From Podarcis filfolensis (taxonomy: Eukaryota): a stretch of DNA of 64,000 bases. This document shows, in pieces, positions 9,001 through 15,000 of the stretch (the stretch's first letter is position 1; each line of letters opens with the position of its first letter). Location of the stretch: assembly GCA_964270895.1 (NCBI GenBank), contig OZ185436.1, one strand, 5' to 3'. Made by a program: the position numbers.

Positions 9001-12000
9001 CTACAGACAGAAAGAGCAACAAATCAAGATGGGCATAATAAAATTATTGGCACCAGCAGAAGACAACATATACTAAGGTTAGTTGAAGGAAAATACGTAA
9101 GTGAAGGCTGCATGTTTGAAAACTGGCAAGATACAGCCAGTCAACTGACTTTTAAGTTAGCCTTCACAAGCAGCTGGCACTTGAGGAACCAAGAGGCTCT
9201 TTGTCTTGTGGGAATGAAGACACTCAACCCTAGATGCTCCTTAGATGCTCATGTATCTAGAGAAGCAGAGGGGGAAATTACCTTTGAGATTCATACAGGT
9301 ATTACTATTAATTCCTTCTAGCAATGATTCAAAACTTCCTATACGTACTCAGTATCATGCGAAATTGCATGAGGGATTAACATATTACGTATACTACAGA
9401 AATATATATATATAATTTTTCTTTTTAAGTCCAGTAGCACCTTAGAGACCAAATTTGTTCTTGGTATGAGCTTTCGTGTGCATGCACACTTCTTCAGATG
9501 CTACAGATAGATATTGGTCTAAAATTTACAGATGCTCAGAAACTCTTCAGGAAAAAACCTTAAGAGGAGAAACTCCCCCTCCCACAACTGCATAAGACCA
9601 CTATGGCACAAGATGTTGAGACAGAATTGGGGGAAGGGAGAACAGGCAATTGGGTGGGAGGGGGAAATGGAGTGACTGAAAAGAAAGGTGAGAGGTAGAG
9701 ACACTAAAGCAGGGGTAGGCAACCTAAGGCCCGGGGGCCGGATTCGGCCCAAGCGCATTCTCAGTCTGGCCTGCGGATGGTCCAGGAATCAGCGTGTTTT
9801 CACATGAGTAGAATGTGTGCTTTTATTTAAATTGATCTCTGGGTTATTTATGGGACATAGGAATTTGTTCATATATTTTTTTCAAAATATAGTCCGGCCC
9901 ACCACATGGTCTGAGGGACGGTGGACCGGCCCATGGCTGGAAAAGGTTGCTGACCCCTGCACTAAAGTATACAAAGGTTAGACGAACCATCACATTCTCT
10001 GGGTAGGTCACTTCCAGGTTAACAAGAATAAACTATTTAAGTGTCTCAAGAGATGGAATTGAGAGCTGTCTGTAGACATCAATTGATAAATCAGTTCTAG
10101 GTTTGGGCATGAGTCAATCTTTCCACAAACAAAAAACTACAATGGGGTGGGCTGTCCCAGAGCAGCCCAGTGAGGACTAAATGAAGTCAGTGGGTATAGA
10201 AGATCAACTCAGGATTCAAGGCAATGTTTAAAACATCTTAAACATTTACATTTGTGGCATGTGTTATTAAGAAGATAGATTTGCCAACCTTTGGCCATAT
10301 TTTAATTATGGAATTTGTGGAATTTAAAGATATAAATCAATGTTGTCTAATGGGCTCATAATTATTTGGCAACAGATAGGAATTTCAATCATAGTGCTAA
10401 ATGCAGAAGTGAGCTATGCATCCCATATATGGGATAAGGGAAATAATATGCAGAGTAAGTTTTAACTTACACAATACTCACATCTTAAATGCATCTCTAG
10501 CAACTTTCAGACAGGCAGAAACTGTGACTGACAATAGTGATTTCACCATGGGTTTATATTTAAAATGCATCAATTACATATACTTCATGTTTACCTAAAT
10601 AAAACACTGAAAGGGCTAGTCAAAGTAAAATGTACCCAACTGAGACCATAAATTAACACTGAATTTTTTGCAACTATTGTGATTATCCAGATACAGTGGT
10701 ACCTGTAGTTACGGACTCTTTTTTTTTTTAAATGATATTTATTCAAAATTTCAGAAATACATATATAAAAAAAACAGAAAAACAAAAAGATAAAACAAAA
10801 AAGAAAAGAAAAAGAAAACACAATTCTCAAATTACATCTTTTCATCTGCTTGTTTCTTGACCTCCTCACACCTCCCTTTTTGTATTCTAACTTAATTCAT
10901 TGTTTCAGCAAATTCTTCCCATGTTTCTCAATTCTTATTTAAATATTTTGTCTTAACAATCTGTCTTATTTAATTAACTCAACAAATCCTTTCCATCATT
11001 TACCATGTTCTGTTATTCAGTTTACCTTAATTTGTTTAACTTTATCTTACCTTAAAAACTTTAAAATTCAAAATTTAAACCATCTTTATACATAACTCCT
11101 TAAATCCTTTTTACTAAAGCCAAGTAATTCCTTTCCGACATTTTCCCTAATATTTCATTAGTATTACACTAATTCCAAAAATAAAAAGAAATTCCCTTTT
11201 TATAAACTTCCCCCCCCCCCCTAGTTTTTGTCCAACGTCCCTTCTTCCTGGTCTCGGGTTATGTCAGTCCTTTCTGTCCATATCCAGTCCATCAACCTGG
11301 TGACCTTATGTACGAGGCCCTTAAGTCTCTTCTATGCCCCTTCTGCAGATTTTCTTCTTCTTGTTTGTAGTTACACTCTTCCTTGCCCTTTGTTGTTTTC
11401 TTTCTTAATTTCTTCCCTTTTTCCTTGAGGAGTAGGTCTCTGGGGAGTTCCAGCTGGTAATAATCTCCATTTTCCTTCATCAAACTAGCCCATTCCCCAC
11501 AGTCCCACTCCCCATCATCGTCGTTATAATCCAAAAGGTAGTCATCCAAAAAATAATTATCAACATGTTTCATAGTCCCACCAGATTTAGGAGCCTCCTT
11601 AACTCCAGACACTTCCAAGCCCACTCCAAGTTCAATCTTCCAATACAGCGGCTTTTGCTCCTGCAGGGCTTCAGCTCTCTCCATTCGTGTTACTTGAGAT
11701 ACGGTCACAGCCTCCTCCATCTTCAACTGCCCTTGGACTTGCCCAGTCGAACCAGTTTCCTGAATTGGTCCCTGTATAATTTCTTTATCCTTGTTTCCCG
11801 TTAATTCATATTCACTGGCTACGGCAGTCATCAAGTCCAACTTCTCATTCATCAGATTTATCATCTCATGCAACTGCTCCAGCATAGCATTTGTCTTGCC
11901 AAGAGCAGACACCAAAACTTCCTCCCGGCTCATTTCTATTCAAGGTCAAGCGGCTGGTCCCACGATCTCAATCTCGCAGCTGTAAGGTCTCCAAATAAAC

Positions 12001-15000
12001 GGCAGCAACAAACTGACAAGCTCCCTCTAGGGGACACAATTTCTATTTGTATCCATCTTTAAAACGTATCCAACAAAGGAAAGTTACTTTCGATTTTCGA
12101 ATACTTTGTTTCTTTGAAATGCAGAAAGCAGCGTTGAAGTTAATTTGTTTCTCTTTCTTGACTATCTGTCAAAATGCTCCACTTTCAATCAATGGACGTC
12201 TCCATAAATTTCTGTCCTGACACCCCGTTCCCAGGTTTGGGGCGATGGAAACTTATTTTCCTTTACTCTCTCTCCTGCAGGCTTAAACAGTCAAATTCCC
12301 CCCCCTTTCTCCTGCTTCCAGGGGGGGGGGTTTATTAGTTGTAAATGCAGGAAATTTCAATCTTTAAAACAACTTTCTCGGCTATTAGATTGCAAGGTTT
12401 TTGCTTCAGTCTATTTACAAAAAGCGGAAGGCGGACTTCCTGTTTAGACCTTCCCGCTTCGGTGCCTAATTCAAGAATTTCTTGGTCCAATTTTCCGTTT
12501 TTACTCACGGGTACTTGTCAACTTGTCAACGGGTCCAATTGTCAACAGGAAAAAGTCAGCGCTCTCTGGCGATGGCTGTGCGGCTTCCCTCCGTGAAAGT
12601 AGCAGTCAGTTCGCAGCACCGCGCTGCTCACCCCACTTCGCTCTGGAACCCCAAAATGGGTTTCCCCACGAGTAGGGGAGGCGCTTTTGGTGCTCTGCCG
12701 AACCCCACATTCCCAGGCTCCTCCGCCTGGGATTTCTAGCGGGCCCCTGCCTTCGCCGCGACGGGAAGGCCCAAATTCCACGGAGCCCGTTCCTCCGATC
12801 GGAGGAACTCCGCCATTCGCCGATGGCGCTGACCCGGAAGTCCTGTAGTTACGGACTCAATCCGTTCCGGGATGCCATTTGCACCCCGAAAAGTCCATAA
12901 CTAGAGCACGGCGCAATACAGCACTTCTGTGCATGTGCAAAGCGCGCAGAACGCTTCTGCGCACGTGGCGAAACCCAGAAGTGTGCCGCATTCGCAAGCC
13001 AAAAAGCCAAAACATGAACCTAACACAACACGACTTAATATATATATATAACATTGAAAGCAGAAGAAAATGTGATGTTTACTTGTGTTCAAGTACTACT
13101 TCAAGCGGGACGTGGGTGGCGCTGTGGGTTAAACCACAGAGCTTAGGACTTGCTGATCAGAAGGTCGGCAGTTCGAATCCCCATGACAGAGTGAGCTCCC
13201 GTTGCTCAATCCCTGCTCCTGCCAACCTAGCAGTTGGAAAGCACGTCAAAGTGCAAGTAGATAAATAGGTACCGCTCCGGCAGGAAGGTAAACAGTGTTT
13301 CCATGTGCTGCTCTGGTTCGCCAGAAGCGGCTTAGTCATGCTGGCCACATGACCTGGAAGCTGTACGCCGGCTCCCTCAGCCAATAAAGCGAGATGAGCA
13401 CCGCAACCCCAGAGTCAGCCATGACTGGACCTAATGGTCAGTGGTCTCTTTACTACTTCAAGCACTTTTTCTTATACTTTTAACATAACACAAAGTCTAG
13501 ACAGGATAAGTCAGAAGTCAAACACAAAACGCACCCAAACTCTAAGGTGTGACAACTATCCTTTGAAGGTAGTTGCACAATTAAACCACATATTTCAGCA
13601 ATGCAAGCTAGTAAAGCCATACCTCATTTTGCTAAATTCTGCCTTGCAACTAGTCATCTAGCAAGAGGCAATTGTGGGTCAGAATGCATGCACAATAAGA
13701 TATCAGTCATTGACACTGTTGGAAAAAACACAGTAATAAACCAGAGCAGGCTACTGTCTCAATGCATCTACAAACTAGTTCACATGAAACTTCCCTATAC
13801 ATTCCATCAAATGGAGAACTGACTGAAATTCAGAGAAACAATATTAATCATGGCTCTTTAGCCCATAGTTTAACTTGGAAGGAAGGAGTGGTAAAAGGCA
13901 ATGCATTTCCAACCTTTTCTCCCTCCAACACACTGAGCAGCTGCTCTCATTCTGTTAACAAAGGATTTAGCCTTACACAACAGAACTTCCCCCTCCTGCA
14001 CACACACCCTGGGGGAAACTCCAGAACAAATTGGGGGGGGGGGATGAGAGGGGGAAAGTTCCACTGTGAAAACAGAAATCCTTCCACCAACGGAATGACT
14101 GACTTAGCACTACTTTGGATACAAGTCTAAGTCCGGGGACGAGAGGGCATAGTGTGAACACTTGGTGAAACCTTCAGAAGCTAAGTTAATGCTTTGCCAA
14201 AGAAAGCAGGCTTAGGTCTGATCAGCACCTGGAACCAAGTCCTATATTACCTATGTAACCCTATGTATCTACTCCTGAAATTCATGATAGAGAAGAGGAG
14301 GAGTTTGGATTTGATATCCCGCTTTATCACTACCCTAAGGAGTCTCAAAGTGGCTAACAATCTCCTTTCCCTTCCGTGAGGTGAGTGAGGCTGAGAGACT
14401 TCAGAGAAGTGTGACTAGCCCAAGGTCACCCAGCAACTGCATGTGGAGGAGTGGGGAATCGAACCCAGTTCACCAGATTACAAGTCCACTGTTCTTAACC
14501 GCTACACCACACTGGCTCATCATATATTTAACAAAATAGTCTTCTTCTTTTTAAAAAGGGTAACTCGAGGAAGTTAAACATGATTAATTTGCAAGCATGC
14601 TTCTCTGCTAAGGTGAATCTAGAATAGCAAAAATGCACAGTGTTCAAAACTCCCATTGTTCTAGGCACATTTTGCAACAGGGAATTTCATTAGCATGAGC
14701 CGTTTCTGAGCTCTGGGCGCAGTACTGCACCTAAGATTTCTGATTAAAACTGCATAGTGGAAGGAAAGGAGGAACTTTTGCTGCCTCCCCACTTCCAGCT
14801 ACTCTCTCTGGAGAAGAGACCCTCTTAAAAATATTGGGGGGTGGGCAGGGGAAAGACTAGACCATGTGAAAAGTGAACATAATATTTTAGCTGCAGTTCA
14901 TTCATTTTCAGCTTTGTATTCTTGTTATTAAATAGCGCACCTAGACATTCCGTTGTTGAGCCCATAATCTACGTTTAAGGTGCCATTTAGCTGCTAGCTT

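What the first reader, a model, noticed from the sequence alone, without database searches (positions are those of the whole stretch)
10702..12858. Young 2.1-kb 'half-L1'-like retroelement: both ends intact, one ORF, no reverse transcriptase
Seen: a perfect 17-bp TSD, a CpG-rich 5' end beginning (GG)ACTTCCGG, a leader of about 900 nt, one intact 213-aa ORF, an AT-rich 3' region, AATAAA and a poly(A) tail. No endonuclease or RT motifs are present. An ordinary 5'-truncated L1 would keep ORF2 and lose the 5' UTR; this element has the opposite pattern. Established: HAL1 elements are non-autonomous L1 derivatives that keep only an ORF1-like gene. Inference: this is a coding, non-autonomous L1-dependent family in a lizard, recently mobile given the intact TSD, CpGs and ORF. 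The target site does not show the canonical mammalian TT/AAAA pattern.
Basis: partly seen in the sequence, partly recalled or inferred. Interest (0 to 1): 0.72.

Follow-up and report, generated by a model that had tools for sequence, protein, structure and literature searches.

The report
Young retrocopy of orphan lizard gene
A 2.1-kb stretch in a wall-lizard-type genome is a freshly pasted-in RNA copy carrying one intact gene of unknown function, but that gene is unrelated to the L1 gene that defines 'half-L1' elements.

Summary
On the minus strand lies a 2,123-nt insertion between perfect 17-bp target-site duplications. It has a CpG-rich 5' end starting ACTTCCGG, a 908-nt leader, one 213-aa ORF, a 562-nt AT-rich 3' UTR, AATAAA and an 11-A tail. 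No RT or endonuclease domain was found.

The 'half-L1' label does not hold. The ORF and its three relatives match no Pfam family, including L1 ORF1 (Transposase_22), and no PDB sequence. The protein is acidic and mostly predicted disordered, apart from an N-terminal helix predicted to self-associate.

The ORF belongs to an orphan family. Two diverged paralogs (61% and 54-57% identity) are annotated as hypothetical proteins in Podarcis lilfordi, and a third (38-40%) sits on an unnamed short contig. Simulated neutral drift to 61% identity never kept the frame open, so coding capacity is under selection.

My reading is a recent L1-type retrocopy of a polyadenylated Pol II transcript from a small lacertid-restricted coding family. 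I could not test whether that family spreads by itself or is an ordinary host gene with retrocopies, because no lizard genome was searchable. The insertion sits in sense orientation inside a CSNK1A1 intron.

The parts
10702..10718 (.). Target-site duplication, copy next to the poly(A) end (17 bp)
   Evidence: Identical to 12842-12858 and extends at neither end.
10719..10729 (-). Poly(A) tail, 11 A (T11 on the + strand)
   Evidence: Read directly; run coordinates.
10738..10743 (-). AATAAA polyadenylation signal, 8 nt before the tail
   Evidence: Sense position 2099 of 2123; sequence.
10730..11291 (-). 3' UTR, about 562 nt, AT-rich and very C-poor on the sense strand, with a T-rich low-complexity tract near its end (10765-10823)
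   Evidence: Sense composition A 0.39, C 0.065, G 0.22, T 0.33; this was computed on a slice that starts 3 nt into the UTR and includes the tail. TRF rows. GC profile.
11292..11933 (-). Single intact ORF, 213 aa plus stop, of an orphan lacertid protein family
   Evidence: Relatives P0001 (61%), P0002 (54-57%) and P0003 (38-40%). Alignment A1.
11805..11927 (-). Codes residues 3-43, the N-terminal helix predicted to form an in-register parallel coiled coil
   Evidence: AF2 helix 3-43 (single sequence) or 3-50 (with A1), with 10-residue block means of 73-86 over residues 1-30 and 62-69 over 31-40. Three-copy model ipSAE 0.61 against best control 0.06.
11295..11543 (-). Codes residues 131-213, the best-conserved part of the family: an acidic block followed by a basic tail
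   Evidence: Pairwise identity is 46-80% here against 20-80% in residues 1-45 and 21-67% in 46-130. Net charge per 30-residue block is -9 (121-150), +4 (151-180) and +2 (181-210).
11934..12841 (-). 5' leader, 908 nt, depleted of upstream ATGs
   Evidence: 4 ATG against 11.4 +/- 2.6 in 1000 dinucleotide shuffles; 0.2% of shuffles had as few. The antisense strand has 8 against 6.8.
12442..12841 (-). CpG-rich first 400 nt of the transcript, starting with ACTTCCGG; candidate promoter-overlapping region
   Evidence: CpG o/e 0.89 and 0.98, GC 0.64 and 0.52, against a window value of 0.29. Motif count. The promoter role is inferred.
12842..12858 (.). Target-site duplication, copy at the 5' end of the element (17 bp)

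Best explanation
The element is a recent retrocopy made by target-primed reverse transcription of the L1 type. A capped, polyadenylated Pol II transcript of about 2.1 kb was copied into a nick made between CTC and AA, and the second cut 17 bp away produced the duplication. The transcript has a CpG-rich start, a 908-nt upstream-ATG-poor leader, a 213-aa ORF and an AT-rich 3' UTR with AATAAA. It encodes no enzyme, so the reverse transcriptase and endonuclease came in trans. The ORF is not an L1 ORF1 derivative, so this is not a HAL1. It encodes an orphan, acidic protein with an N-terminal self-associating coiled coil, a disordered middle, and a conserved C-terminal 80 residues ending in a basic tail. 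At least three diverged lineages of this protein exist in lacertids and relatives, all with the frame kept open by selection. My lean, about 55:45, is inferred and not shown. I think the unit carries its own promoter in the CpG-rich first 400 nt and spreads at low copy number as a coding, non-autonomous retroposon (a self-propagating retrogene). The alternative is a one-off pseudogene of a conventional intron-bearing host gene. Shown: the insertion anatomy, the absence of RT, endonuclease and ORF1 homology, the existence and divergence of paralogs, and the constraint on the ORF. Inferred: L1 as the enzyme source, the internal promoter, copy-to-copy propagation, and any role of the protein in mobilisation.
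For: Insertion hallmarks: a perfect 17-bp TSD, an 11-A tail 8 nt after AATAAA, and the only such configuration among 5 homopolymer runs scanned. No enzyme: the ORF plus 10 of 23 other stop-free frames gave no RT or endonuclease match in Pfam. Not ORF1: 0 of 4 family members hit Transposase_22 or any family below E 0.025, all under the curated cut-offs, and the profile found 0 PDB sequences at E up to 10. Family: phmmer against 1.84 billion representatives found 3 proteins at E up to 0.001, one of which (P0004) I take as spurious. A profile search found 3 proteins among 1,875 candidates: two named hypothetical proteins of Podarcis lilfordi, on a 97-Mb and a 47-kb contig, and one unnamed on a 1,129-nt contig. 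Pairwise identities are 33-72% and all four end at the same position. Selection: in substitution-only simulations of drift to 61% amino-acid identity, 0 of 500 kept the frame open (mean 5.5 stops), and about 2% of 500 did at 72%. Conservation is concentrated in residues 131-213. The relatives are paralogs, not orthologs: TLR13 in the window is 97% identical to P. muralis, and passages of PMC10214862 put P. muralis and P. lilfordi 18-20 My apart. Translated leader: 4 upstream ATGs against 11.4 expected, with 0.2% of 1000 shuffles as low, on the sense strand only. Youth or promoter activity: CpG o/e 0.84 in the leader against 0.29 in the window. Self-association of residues 1-60 in three copies: score 0.61, best of 3 controls 0.06. 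That mark was reached by 21 of 30 proteins solved as pairs of one chain and 0 of 23 solved as single chains. These counts hold only roughly here, because the calibration used two copies. On eukaryotes it was reached by 17 of 29 (animals 7 of 16), by only 1 of 7 with no older solved relative, and by 0 of 30 single chains. The runs agree in at least 80% of contacts, partner pLDDT is 71-72, and contacts fall in register at 3-4 residue spacing. The model supports binding but does not show it.
Against: Copy number in the source genome is unknown. No second copy or fragment exists in the 64-kb window by blastn or tblastn, though that says little for a low-copy family. Only two paralogs are annotated in P. 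lilfordi, whose genome was repeat-masked with Repbase and RepeatModeler libraries before annotation (passages of PMC10214862). This argues against a high-copy repeat there. An ETS-like start motif, a CpG island, AATAAA and poly(A) are equally what an ordinary housekeeping or germline mRNA would carry. The protein is acidic (pI 5.0), unlike the nucleic-acid chaperones of LINEs, so a role in its own mobilisation is not indicated. The 11-A tail is short. The nick site is only a partial match to the L1 endonuclease preference as I recall it. No L1 sequence was available for comparing the ends.
Confidence: 0.55

Rival explanations
1. This is an ordinary processed pseudogene or retrogene. It would be a one-off L1-mediated copy of the spliced mRNA of a conventional, lineage-specific and fast-evolving host gene or small tandem gene family. 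The ORF is intact only because the insertion is young, and the copy itself is transcriptionally dead.
For: All insertion hallmarks are those of processed pseudogenes. The ORF has no transposon-related domain. The protein is acidic with a coiled coil, as many cellular proteins are. The start motif and CpG island are typical of ordinary TATA-less promoters (recalled). The P. lilfordi paralogs survived a repeat-masked annotation. No other copy lies in the window.
Against: No homologous protein model turned up from any other source in 5.8 billion clusters or 1.84 billion representatives. That is odd for an expressed host gene, though orphan single-exon ORFs are often left unannotated (inference). 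A 908-nt leader is unusually long for a cellular mRNA (general knowledge). Three diverged lineages with maintained frames need either repeated duplication of a gene or copy-to-copy spread.
Confidence: 0.38
2. This is a true HAL1-like element: an L1 derivative that kept a highly diverged ORF1 and L1 UTRs and lost ORF2.
For: One ORF, no ORF2, a long leader, a poly(A) tail and a TSD. The N-terminal coiled coil is predicted to self-associate, as in L1 ORF1p (the ORF1p trimer is described in passages of PMC4161310).
Against: 0 of 4 family members match Transposase_22. There are 0 PDB hits at E up to 10, although I recall that the PDB holds L1 ORF1p structures. No folded domain is predicted after the helix. 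The pI is 5.0. The atlas search gave nothing at or above 0.9.
Confidence: 0.04
3. This is an internally deleted copy of another autonomous element, a non-L1 LINE or other retroelement whose first ORF is of an unclassified type.
For: I recall that some LINE clades have ORF1 proteins made only of a coiled coil and a basic region; this was not checked here.
Against: As I recall, poly(A) plus a 17-bp TSD is the L1-type signature and not that of CR1, L2 or RTE elements. The ORF ends with a normal stop followed by a 562-nt UTR, with no trace of a second frame.
Confidence: 0.03

Closest known systems
HAL1 ('half-L1') elements of mammals (Bao and Jurka 2010; seen only as a citation and one sentence in PMC4161310; the paper itself is not held)
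   Same: A single ORF, no ORF2, poly(A) and TSD, and presumed mobilisation by L1 enzymes in trans.
   Different: The HAL1 ORF is an L1 ORF1 derivative. This ORF shows no similarity to ORF1. L1-derived UTRs could not be tested.
L1-mediated processed pseudogenes and retrogenes
   Same: TSD, poly(A) after AATAAA, colinearity with an mRNA, and no enzyme of its own.
   Different: The source is an orphan family with several diverged intact paralogs and no annotated conventional parent. The leader is very long and poor in upstream ATGs.
SVA/LAVA-type non-autonomous L1-dependent retroposons (PMC3287187 and PMC5174737; abstracts seen in the search listings)
   Same: About 2 kb, Pol II transcribed, polyadenylated, TSD-flanked and dependent on L1 in trans.
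   Different: SVA and LAVA are non-coding composites of other repeats. This unit is coding and shares nothing with the SINE copies or any other sequence in the window.
L1 ORF1p (Pfam Transposase_22)
   Same: A coiled coil near the N-terminus predicted to self-associate in register.
   Different: No RRM or C-terminal domain, no sequence match, an acidic rather than basic protein, and only 213 aa.

Membership tests
HAL1 (half-L1) | The single ORF is homologous to L1 ORF1p (coiled coil + RRM + CTD; Pfam Transposase_22) | tested here: not met
   0 of 4 family members match it at E up to 10. The profile has 0 PDB hits at E up to 10.
HAL1 (half-L1) | Lacks ORF2 (endonuclease and reverse transcriptase) | tested here: met
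   The ORF plus 10 of 23 other stop-free frames of 45 aa or more gave no RT or endonuclease family. The longest other frame is 122 aa.
HAL1 (half-L1) | L1-type insertion: poly(A) tail and target-site duplication | tested here: met
   17-bp perfect TSD and an 11-A tail after AATAAA.
HAL1 (half-L1) | 5' and 3' ends derived from a partner L1 | not testable with these tools
   No lizard L1 consensus or repeat library was available. 10 long frames elsewhere in the window gave 0 Pfam hits.
HAL1 (half-L1) | Interspersed multi-copy family, each copy with its own TSD | not testable with these tools
   No vertebrate genome collection was available. The only indications are two paralogs in P. lilfordi and one unnamed relative. 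There is none in the window.
Processed retrocopy of a cellular mRNA | TSD-flanked, polyadenylated copy ending shortly after a polyadenylation signal | tested here: met
Processed retrocopy of a cellular mRNA | An intron-bearing parent gene exists elsewhere in the genome | not testable with these tools
Processed retrocopy of a cellular mRNA | Nick site matches the L1 endonuclease preference (T run / AA on the primed strand; consensus recalled) | tested here: inconclusive
   The cut lies between CTC and AA. The AA and three pyrimidines are kept, but there is no T run.
L1 ORF1p-like protein (function) | Self-associating parallel coiled coil | tested here: met
   By prediction only: score 0.61 against best control 0.06, with in-register contacts.
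L1 ORF1p-like protein (function) | Basic nucleic-acid-binding domains (RRM, CTD) | tested here: not met
   No domain match. pI 5.0, with only the last 60 residues or so net basic. pLDDT is under 50 from residue 44 on.
SVA-like composite retroposon | Built from pieces of other repeats (SINE, VNTR) | tested here: not met
   No similarity to the five SINE copies or to anything else in the window. Only short low-complexity tracts were found. No genome-wide repeat library was available.

The most novel reading that the evidence does not exclude
This is one active copy of a lacertid-specific, protein-coding, non-autonomous retroposon whose ORF has nothing to do with L1 ORF1. It would be a self-propagating retrogene with an internal CpG-island promoter. 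Its oligomeric protein would help its own mRNA capture L1 ORF2p in trans, or would serve some other selfish or host function. The family would have persisted long enough to split into lineages 33-72% identical.
Probability: 0.4. Interest if true: 0.7.

Novelty: new member of a known kind. Interest (0 to 1): 0.45.

Why it matters
The copy is direct evidence that an L1-type retrotransposition machinery has acted recently on polyadenylated RNAs in a lacertid genome. The insertion is probably young enough to be polymorphic. It sits in sense orientation, with three AATAAA/ATTAAA hexamers of its own, inside an intron of the essential kinase gene CSNK1A1. If the family proves to be self-propagating, it would be a coding L1 parasite that invented its own protein instead of keeping ORF1. 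That would make the question of what a non-autonomous element's protein contributes to trans-mobilisation experimentally approachable. If it is only a retrocopy, it still flags an unannotated, selected, fast-evolving orphan protein family in wall lizards.

Tried and rejected
- **ORF homology:** Pfam on the ORF and on all four family members, a PDB sequence profile and the ESM atlas on the whole protein and on residues 125-213 gave nothing usable. The best atlas score was 0.82, below the lead threshold.
- **Structure:** AF2 alone and with the 4-row alignment gave mean pLDDT 42 and 43. I did not run fold search, because matches to such a model would be meaningless.
- **Rfam on 10400-13200:** the only match was a sub-threshold one (27.9 bits against a cut-off of 33) to a plant-virus pseudoknot, lying over the TSD. 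I take it as chance.
- **P0004:** this is a 982-aa tandem-repeat protein that matches a 25-residue stretch ten times (E 2.9e-7). I treat the E-value as inflated by repetition and left it out of the alignment.
- **Second TSD candidate (57711/61988):** rejected because the match continues into the T run.
- **Partner LINE in the window:** 10 long stop-free frames elsewhere gave 0 Pfam hits.
- **The listing of cluster members:** unavailable, so accessions and contig contexts of the relatives stayed unseen.
- **Six whole frames of the element to Pfam:** I sent stop-free pieces instead.
- **Literature:** three searches listed no paper describing an ORF1-only or other coding non-autonomous L1-dependent element in squamates; only listings and abstracts were seen. 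Bao and Jurka 2010 is not held.
- **Supplements:** It would say whether the ab initio predictors ran on masked sequence.
- **Not available:** a genome-wide copy count and a Dfam/Repbase comparison.

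
Full report
**What is there.** The feature lies on the minus strand. The same 17 bases (CCTGTAGTTACGGACTC) occupy 10702-10718 and 12842-12858, and the match extends at neither end. Between them lie 2,123 nt.

Read in sense, the element has these parts:
- a start with ACTTCCGG;
- a 908-nt leader (12841 down to 11934);
- one ORF of 213 codons (11933 down to 11292), with an in-frame stop two codons before its ATG;
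- a 3' UTR of about 562 nt;
- AATAAA at 10738-10743;
- 8 further bases and then 11 A (10719-10729).

I scanned every run of 9 or more A or T in the window (5 runs) for a flanking direct repeat. Only this one gave a repeat that stops at the run. A second candidate (57711/61988) continues into the T run and was dropped.

The first 400 nt have CpG observed/expected of 0.89-0.98, and the whole leader 0.84. The ORF has 0.35, the 3' UTR 0.38 and the window 0.29. The 3' UTR falls to GC 0.15 near its end and is very poor in C on the sense strand. The only correction is that the tail is short, at 11 A.

**No enzyme.** Twenty-four stop-free frames of 45 aa or more overlap the element, and the longest apart from the ORF is 122 aa. 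The ORF and 10 of the other 23 were scanned against Pfam. None matched a reverse transcriptase, an endonuclease or L1 ORF1. Whatever moved this sequence acted in trans.

**The ORF is not L1 ORF1.**
- Pfam gives only two sub-threshold matches, E 0.21 and 2.4.
- None of the four family members matches Transposase_22 or any other family significantly.
- A profile of the family finds nothing in the PDB sequence set at E up to 10.
- The atlas look-alike search tops out at 0.82 for the whole protein and gives nothing usable for the C-terminal part.
- AlphaFold2, alone and with the four-row alignment, gives mean pLDDT 42-43. Only one N-terminal helix (residues 3-43 or 3-50) scores well, with 10-residue block means of 73-86 over residues 1-30.
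- The protein has pI 5.0. It has a strongly acidic block at 121-150 (net -9) and a basic tail.

The defining feature of HAL1, an ORF1-derived gene, was therefore tested and not met.

**The ORF is nevertheless a real, selected gene of an orphan family.**
- A word-indexed search of 5.8 billion clusters found one relative, P0001 (206 aa, 61% identical, 130 of 213).
- An exhaustive phmmer search of 1.84 billion representatives found three proteins at E up to 0.001: P0002 (199 aa, 57%), P0003 (182 aa, 40%) and P0004.
- P0004 is a 982-aa tandem-repeat protein that matches one 25-residue stretch ten times. I set it aside as spurious.
- A profile search found the same three true relatives among 1,875 candidates.
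- P0001 and P0002 are both 'Hypothetical predicted protein [Podarcis lilfordi]', on a 97-Mb and a 47-kb contig. P0003 is unnamed and sits on a 1,129-nt contig.
- All four proteins end at the same position, and pairwise identities are 33-72%.
- Conservation is uneven: 46-80% in residues 131-213 against 21-67% in residues 46-130.

In a substitution-only simulation starting from the window ORF, drift to 61% amino-acid identity left the frame open in 0 of 500 runs, with a mean of 5.5 stops. At 72% identity about 2% of 500 runs stayed open. The frames separating these copies have therefore been kept open by selection.

**The relatives are paralogs.** The window also carries TLR13 (38796-41660, minus), which is 97% identical to Podarcis muralis TLR13. 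The next best hit is 71%, from Elgaria. The host is therefore a lacertid close to Podarcis. Passages of the P. lilfordi genome paper put P. muralis and P. lilfordi 18-20 My apart (PMC10214862). Proteins only 54-61% identical between such close genomes cannot be orthologs drifting neutrally. They are older, diverged lineages of one family.

**The leader behaves like a translated 5' UTR.** It holds 4 upstream ATGs, against 11.4 +/- 2.6 in 1000 dinucleotide-preserving shuffles, and 0.2% of shuffles had as few. The antisense strand shows no depletion, with 8 against 6.8.

The very first bases form an ETS-type motif, which occurs 3 times in the window against 0.56 expected. Sense positions 15-30 hold two inverted GCCAT cores, which I recall as the YY1 core. 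These motif identities are recalled leads and were not tested. They fit a promoter that overlaps the transcript start. That is what a self-propagating element needs, but it is also what many ordinary genes have.

**The N-terminal helix.** Three copies of residues 1-60 were modelled together, with these results:
- The score was 0.61 and the best of 3 controls 0.06.
- The mark was reached by 21 of 30 proteins solved as pairs of one chain and by 0 of 23 solved as single chains.
- The tool warns that these counts hold only roughly, because its calibration used two copies.
- On eukaryotes the mark was reached by 17 of 29 (animals 7 of 16), by only 1 of 7 with no older solved relative, and by 0 of 30 single chains.
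- The runs agree in at least 80% of contacts, and partner pLDDT is 71-72.
- Contacts fall at positions 7, 11, 14, 18, 21, 25, 28, 32, 35, 39 and 42, same residue against same residue. That is a parallel in-register coiled coil.

The model supports self-association but does not show it, and it cannot fix the number of chains. This is the one respect in which the protein works like ORF1p.

**How the copy arose (inferred from the anatomy and from the established model of target-primed reverse transcription).**
1. The window's + strand was nicked between 10718 and the base now at 12859, that is between CTC and AA.
2. The exposed 3' end primed on the poly(A) of the RNA, and the RNA was copied to its 5' end.
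3. The second strand was cut 17 bp away.

The nick keeps the AA and a pyrimidine run but not the T run of the mammalian L1 consensus as I recall it.

**Family or one-off?** This is the point I could not settle.

For a self-propagating, low-copy coding retroposon:
- three diverged lineages with maintained frames;
- a 908-nt leader;
- a CpG island at the transcript start that would travel with the copy;
- a full-length young insertion;
- no homologous protein model from any source other than P. lilfordi in the two large searches. Unannotated loci are what one expects of repeats, although orphan single-exon ORFs are also often skipped.

For an ordinary host gene with a retrocopy:
- the ORF has no transposon ancestry;
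- the protein is acidic;
- the promoter motifs are generic;
- only two paralogs were annotated in P. lilfordi;
- that genome was masked with Repbase and RepeatModeler libraries before annotation, which argues against a high-copy repeat there. The same paper notes that transposon-derived models did slip through on the W chromosome.

The window holds no second copy or fragment, but a 64-kb sample of a genome of about 1.5 Gb says nothing about a low-copy family. I put the self-propagating reading at about 0.4 and the plain retrocopy at about 0.4. The shared core is secure: an L1-type retrocopy of a coding Pol II transcript that is not a HAL1.

**Context.** The insertion lies inside CSNK1A1 and in the same orientation. 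Exon 1 (about 22652-22777, minus) matches casein kinase I alpha chains in the PDB at E 7.5e-19. Kinase motifs, recalled and searched as short patterns, place further exons on the minus strand near 21770, 7569 and 5781. The element therefore sits in the long intron between the second and third of these.

**What stayed unchecked.**
- Genome-wide copy number.
- Dfam and Repbase.
- Comparison with lacertid L1 ends.
- Accessions and neighbourhoods of the relatives (unavailable).
- Bao and Jurka 2010 (not held).
- Supplementary files of PMC10214862.
- The N run at 3373-3576 was left as it is.
- Three literature searches (listings and abstracts only) showed no description of such an element in squamates. 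This is weak evidence of absence.

Noticed in passing
window 5700-22800, minus strand: CSNK1A1 (casein kinase I alpha). Exon 1 at about 22652-22777 matches PDB CK1-alpha chains (E 7.5e-19). Further kinase-motif exons lie near 21770, 7569 and 5781. The retrocopy sits in sense orientation in the long intron between the exons near 21770 and 7569 and brings three AATAAA/ATTAAA hexamers with it.
   Followed up: partly
window 38796-41660, minus strand: An intact single-exon TLR13 gene (955 aa), 97% identical to Podarcis muralis TLR13 and 71% to the next best hit (Elgaria). This places the window in a lacertid lizard.
   Followed up: partly
window 13107-13454; also 52707-53001, 45558-45895, 15609-15975, 332-655: Five copies of a repeat of about 300-350 bp (68-89% identical), presumably a SINE. 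The nearest starts 250 bp from the retrocopy's 5' duplication. It is unrelated to the retrocopy.
   Followed up: no
window 12300-12331 and 11211-11222: Long homopolymer runs lie inside the element. In sense orientation, a C10 and a G8 run 15 nt apart in the leader could pair as a hairpin, and a G12 run lies about 70 nt after the stop codon. Their meaning is unknown.
   Followed up: no
P0004 (protein of the representative library, unnamed): A 982-aa protein made of about ten tandem repeats matches residues 47-71 of the ORF in every repeat (44% identity, E 2.9e-7). I took this as an artefact of repetition, but the short GQV-centred stretch is also conserved within the family.
   Followed up: no
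window 22400-23550: A GC-rich region with long open frames on both strands surrounds CSNK1A1 exon 1. It is presumably the gene's CpG-island promoter.
   Followed up: no
window 10284-10418 and 5464-5598: Two adjacent short inverted matches (98% over 59 bp and 85% over 80 bp) lie just upstream of the insertion site. This is another small repeat.
   Followed up: no
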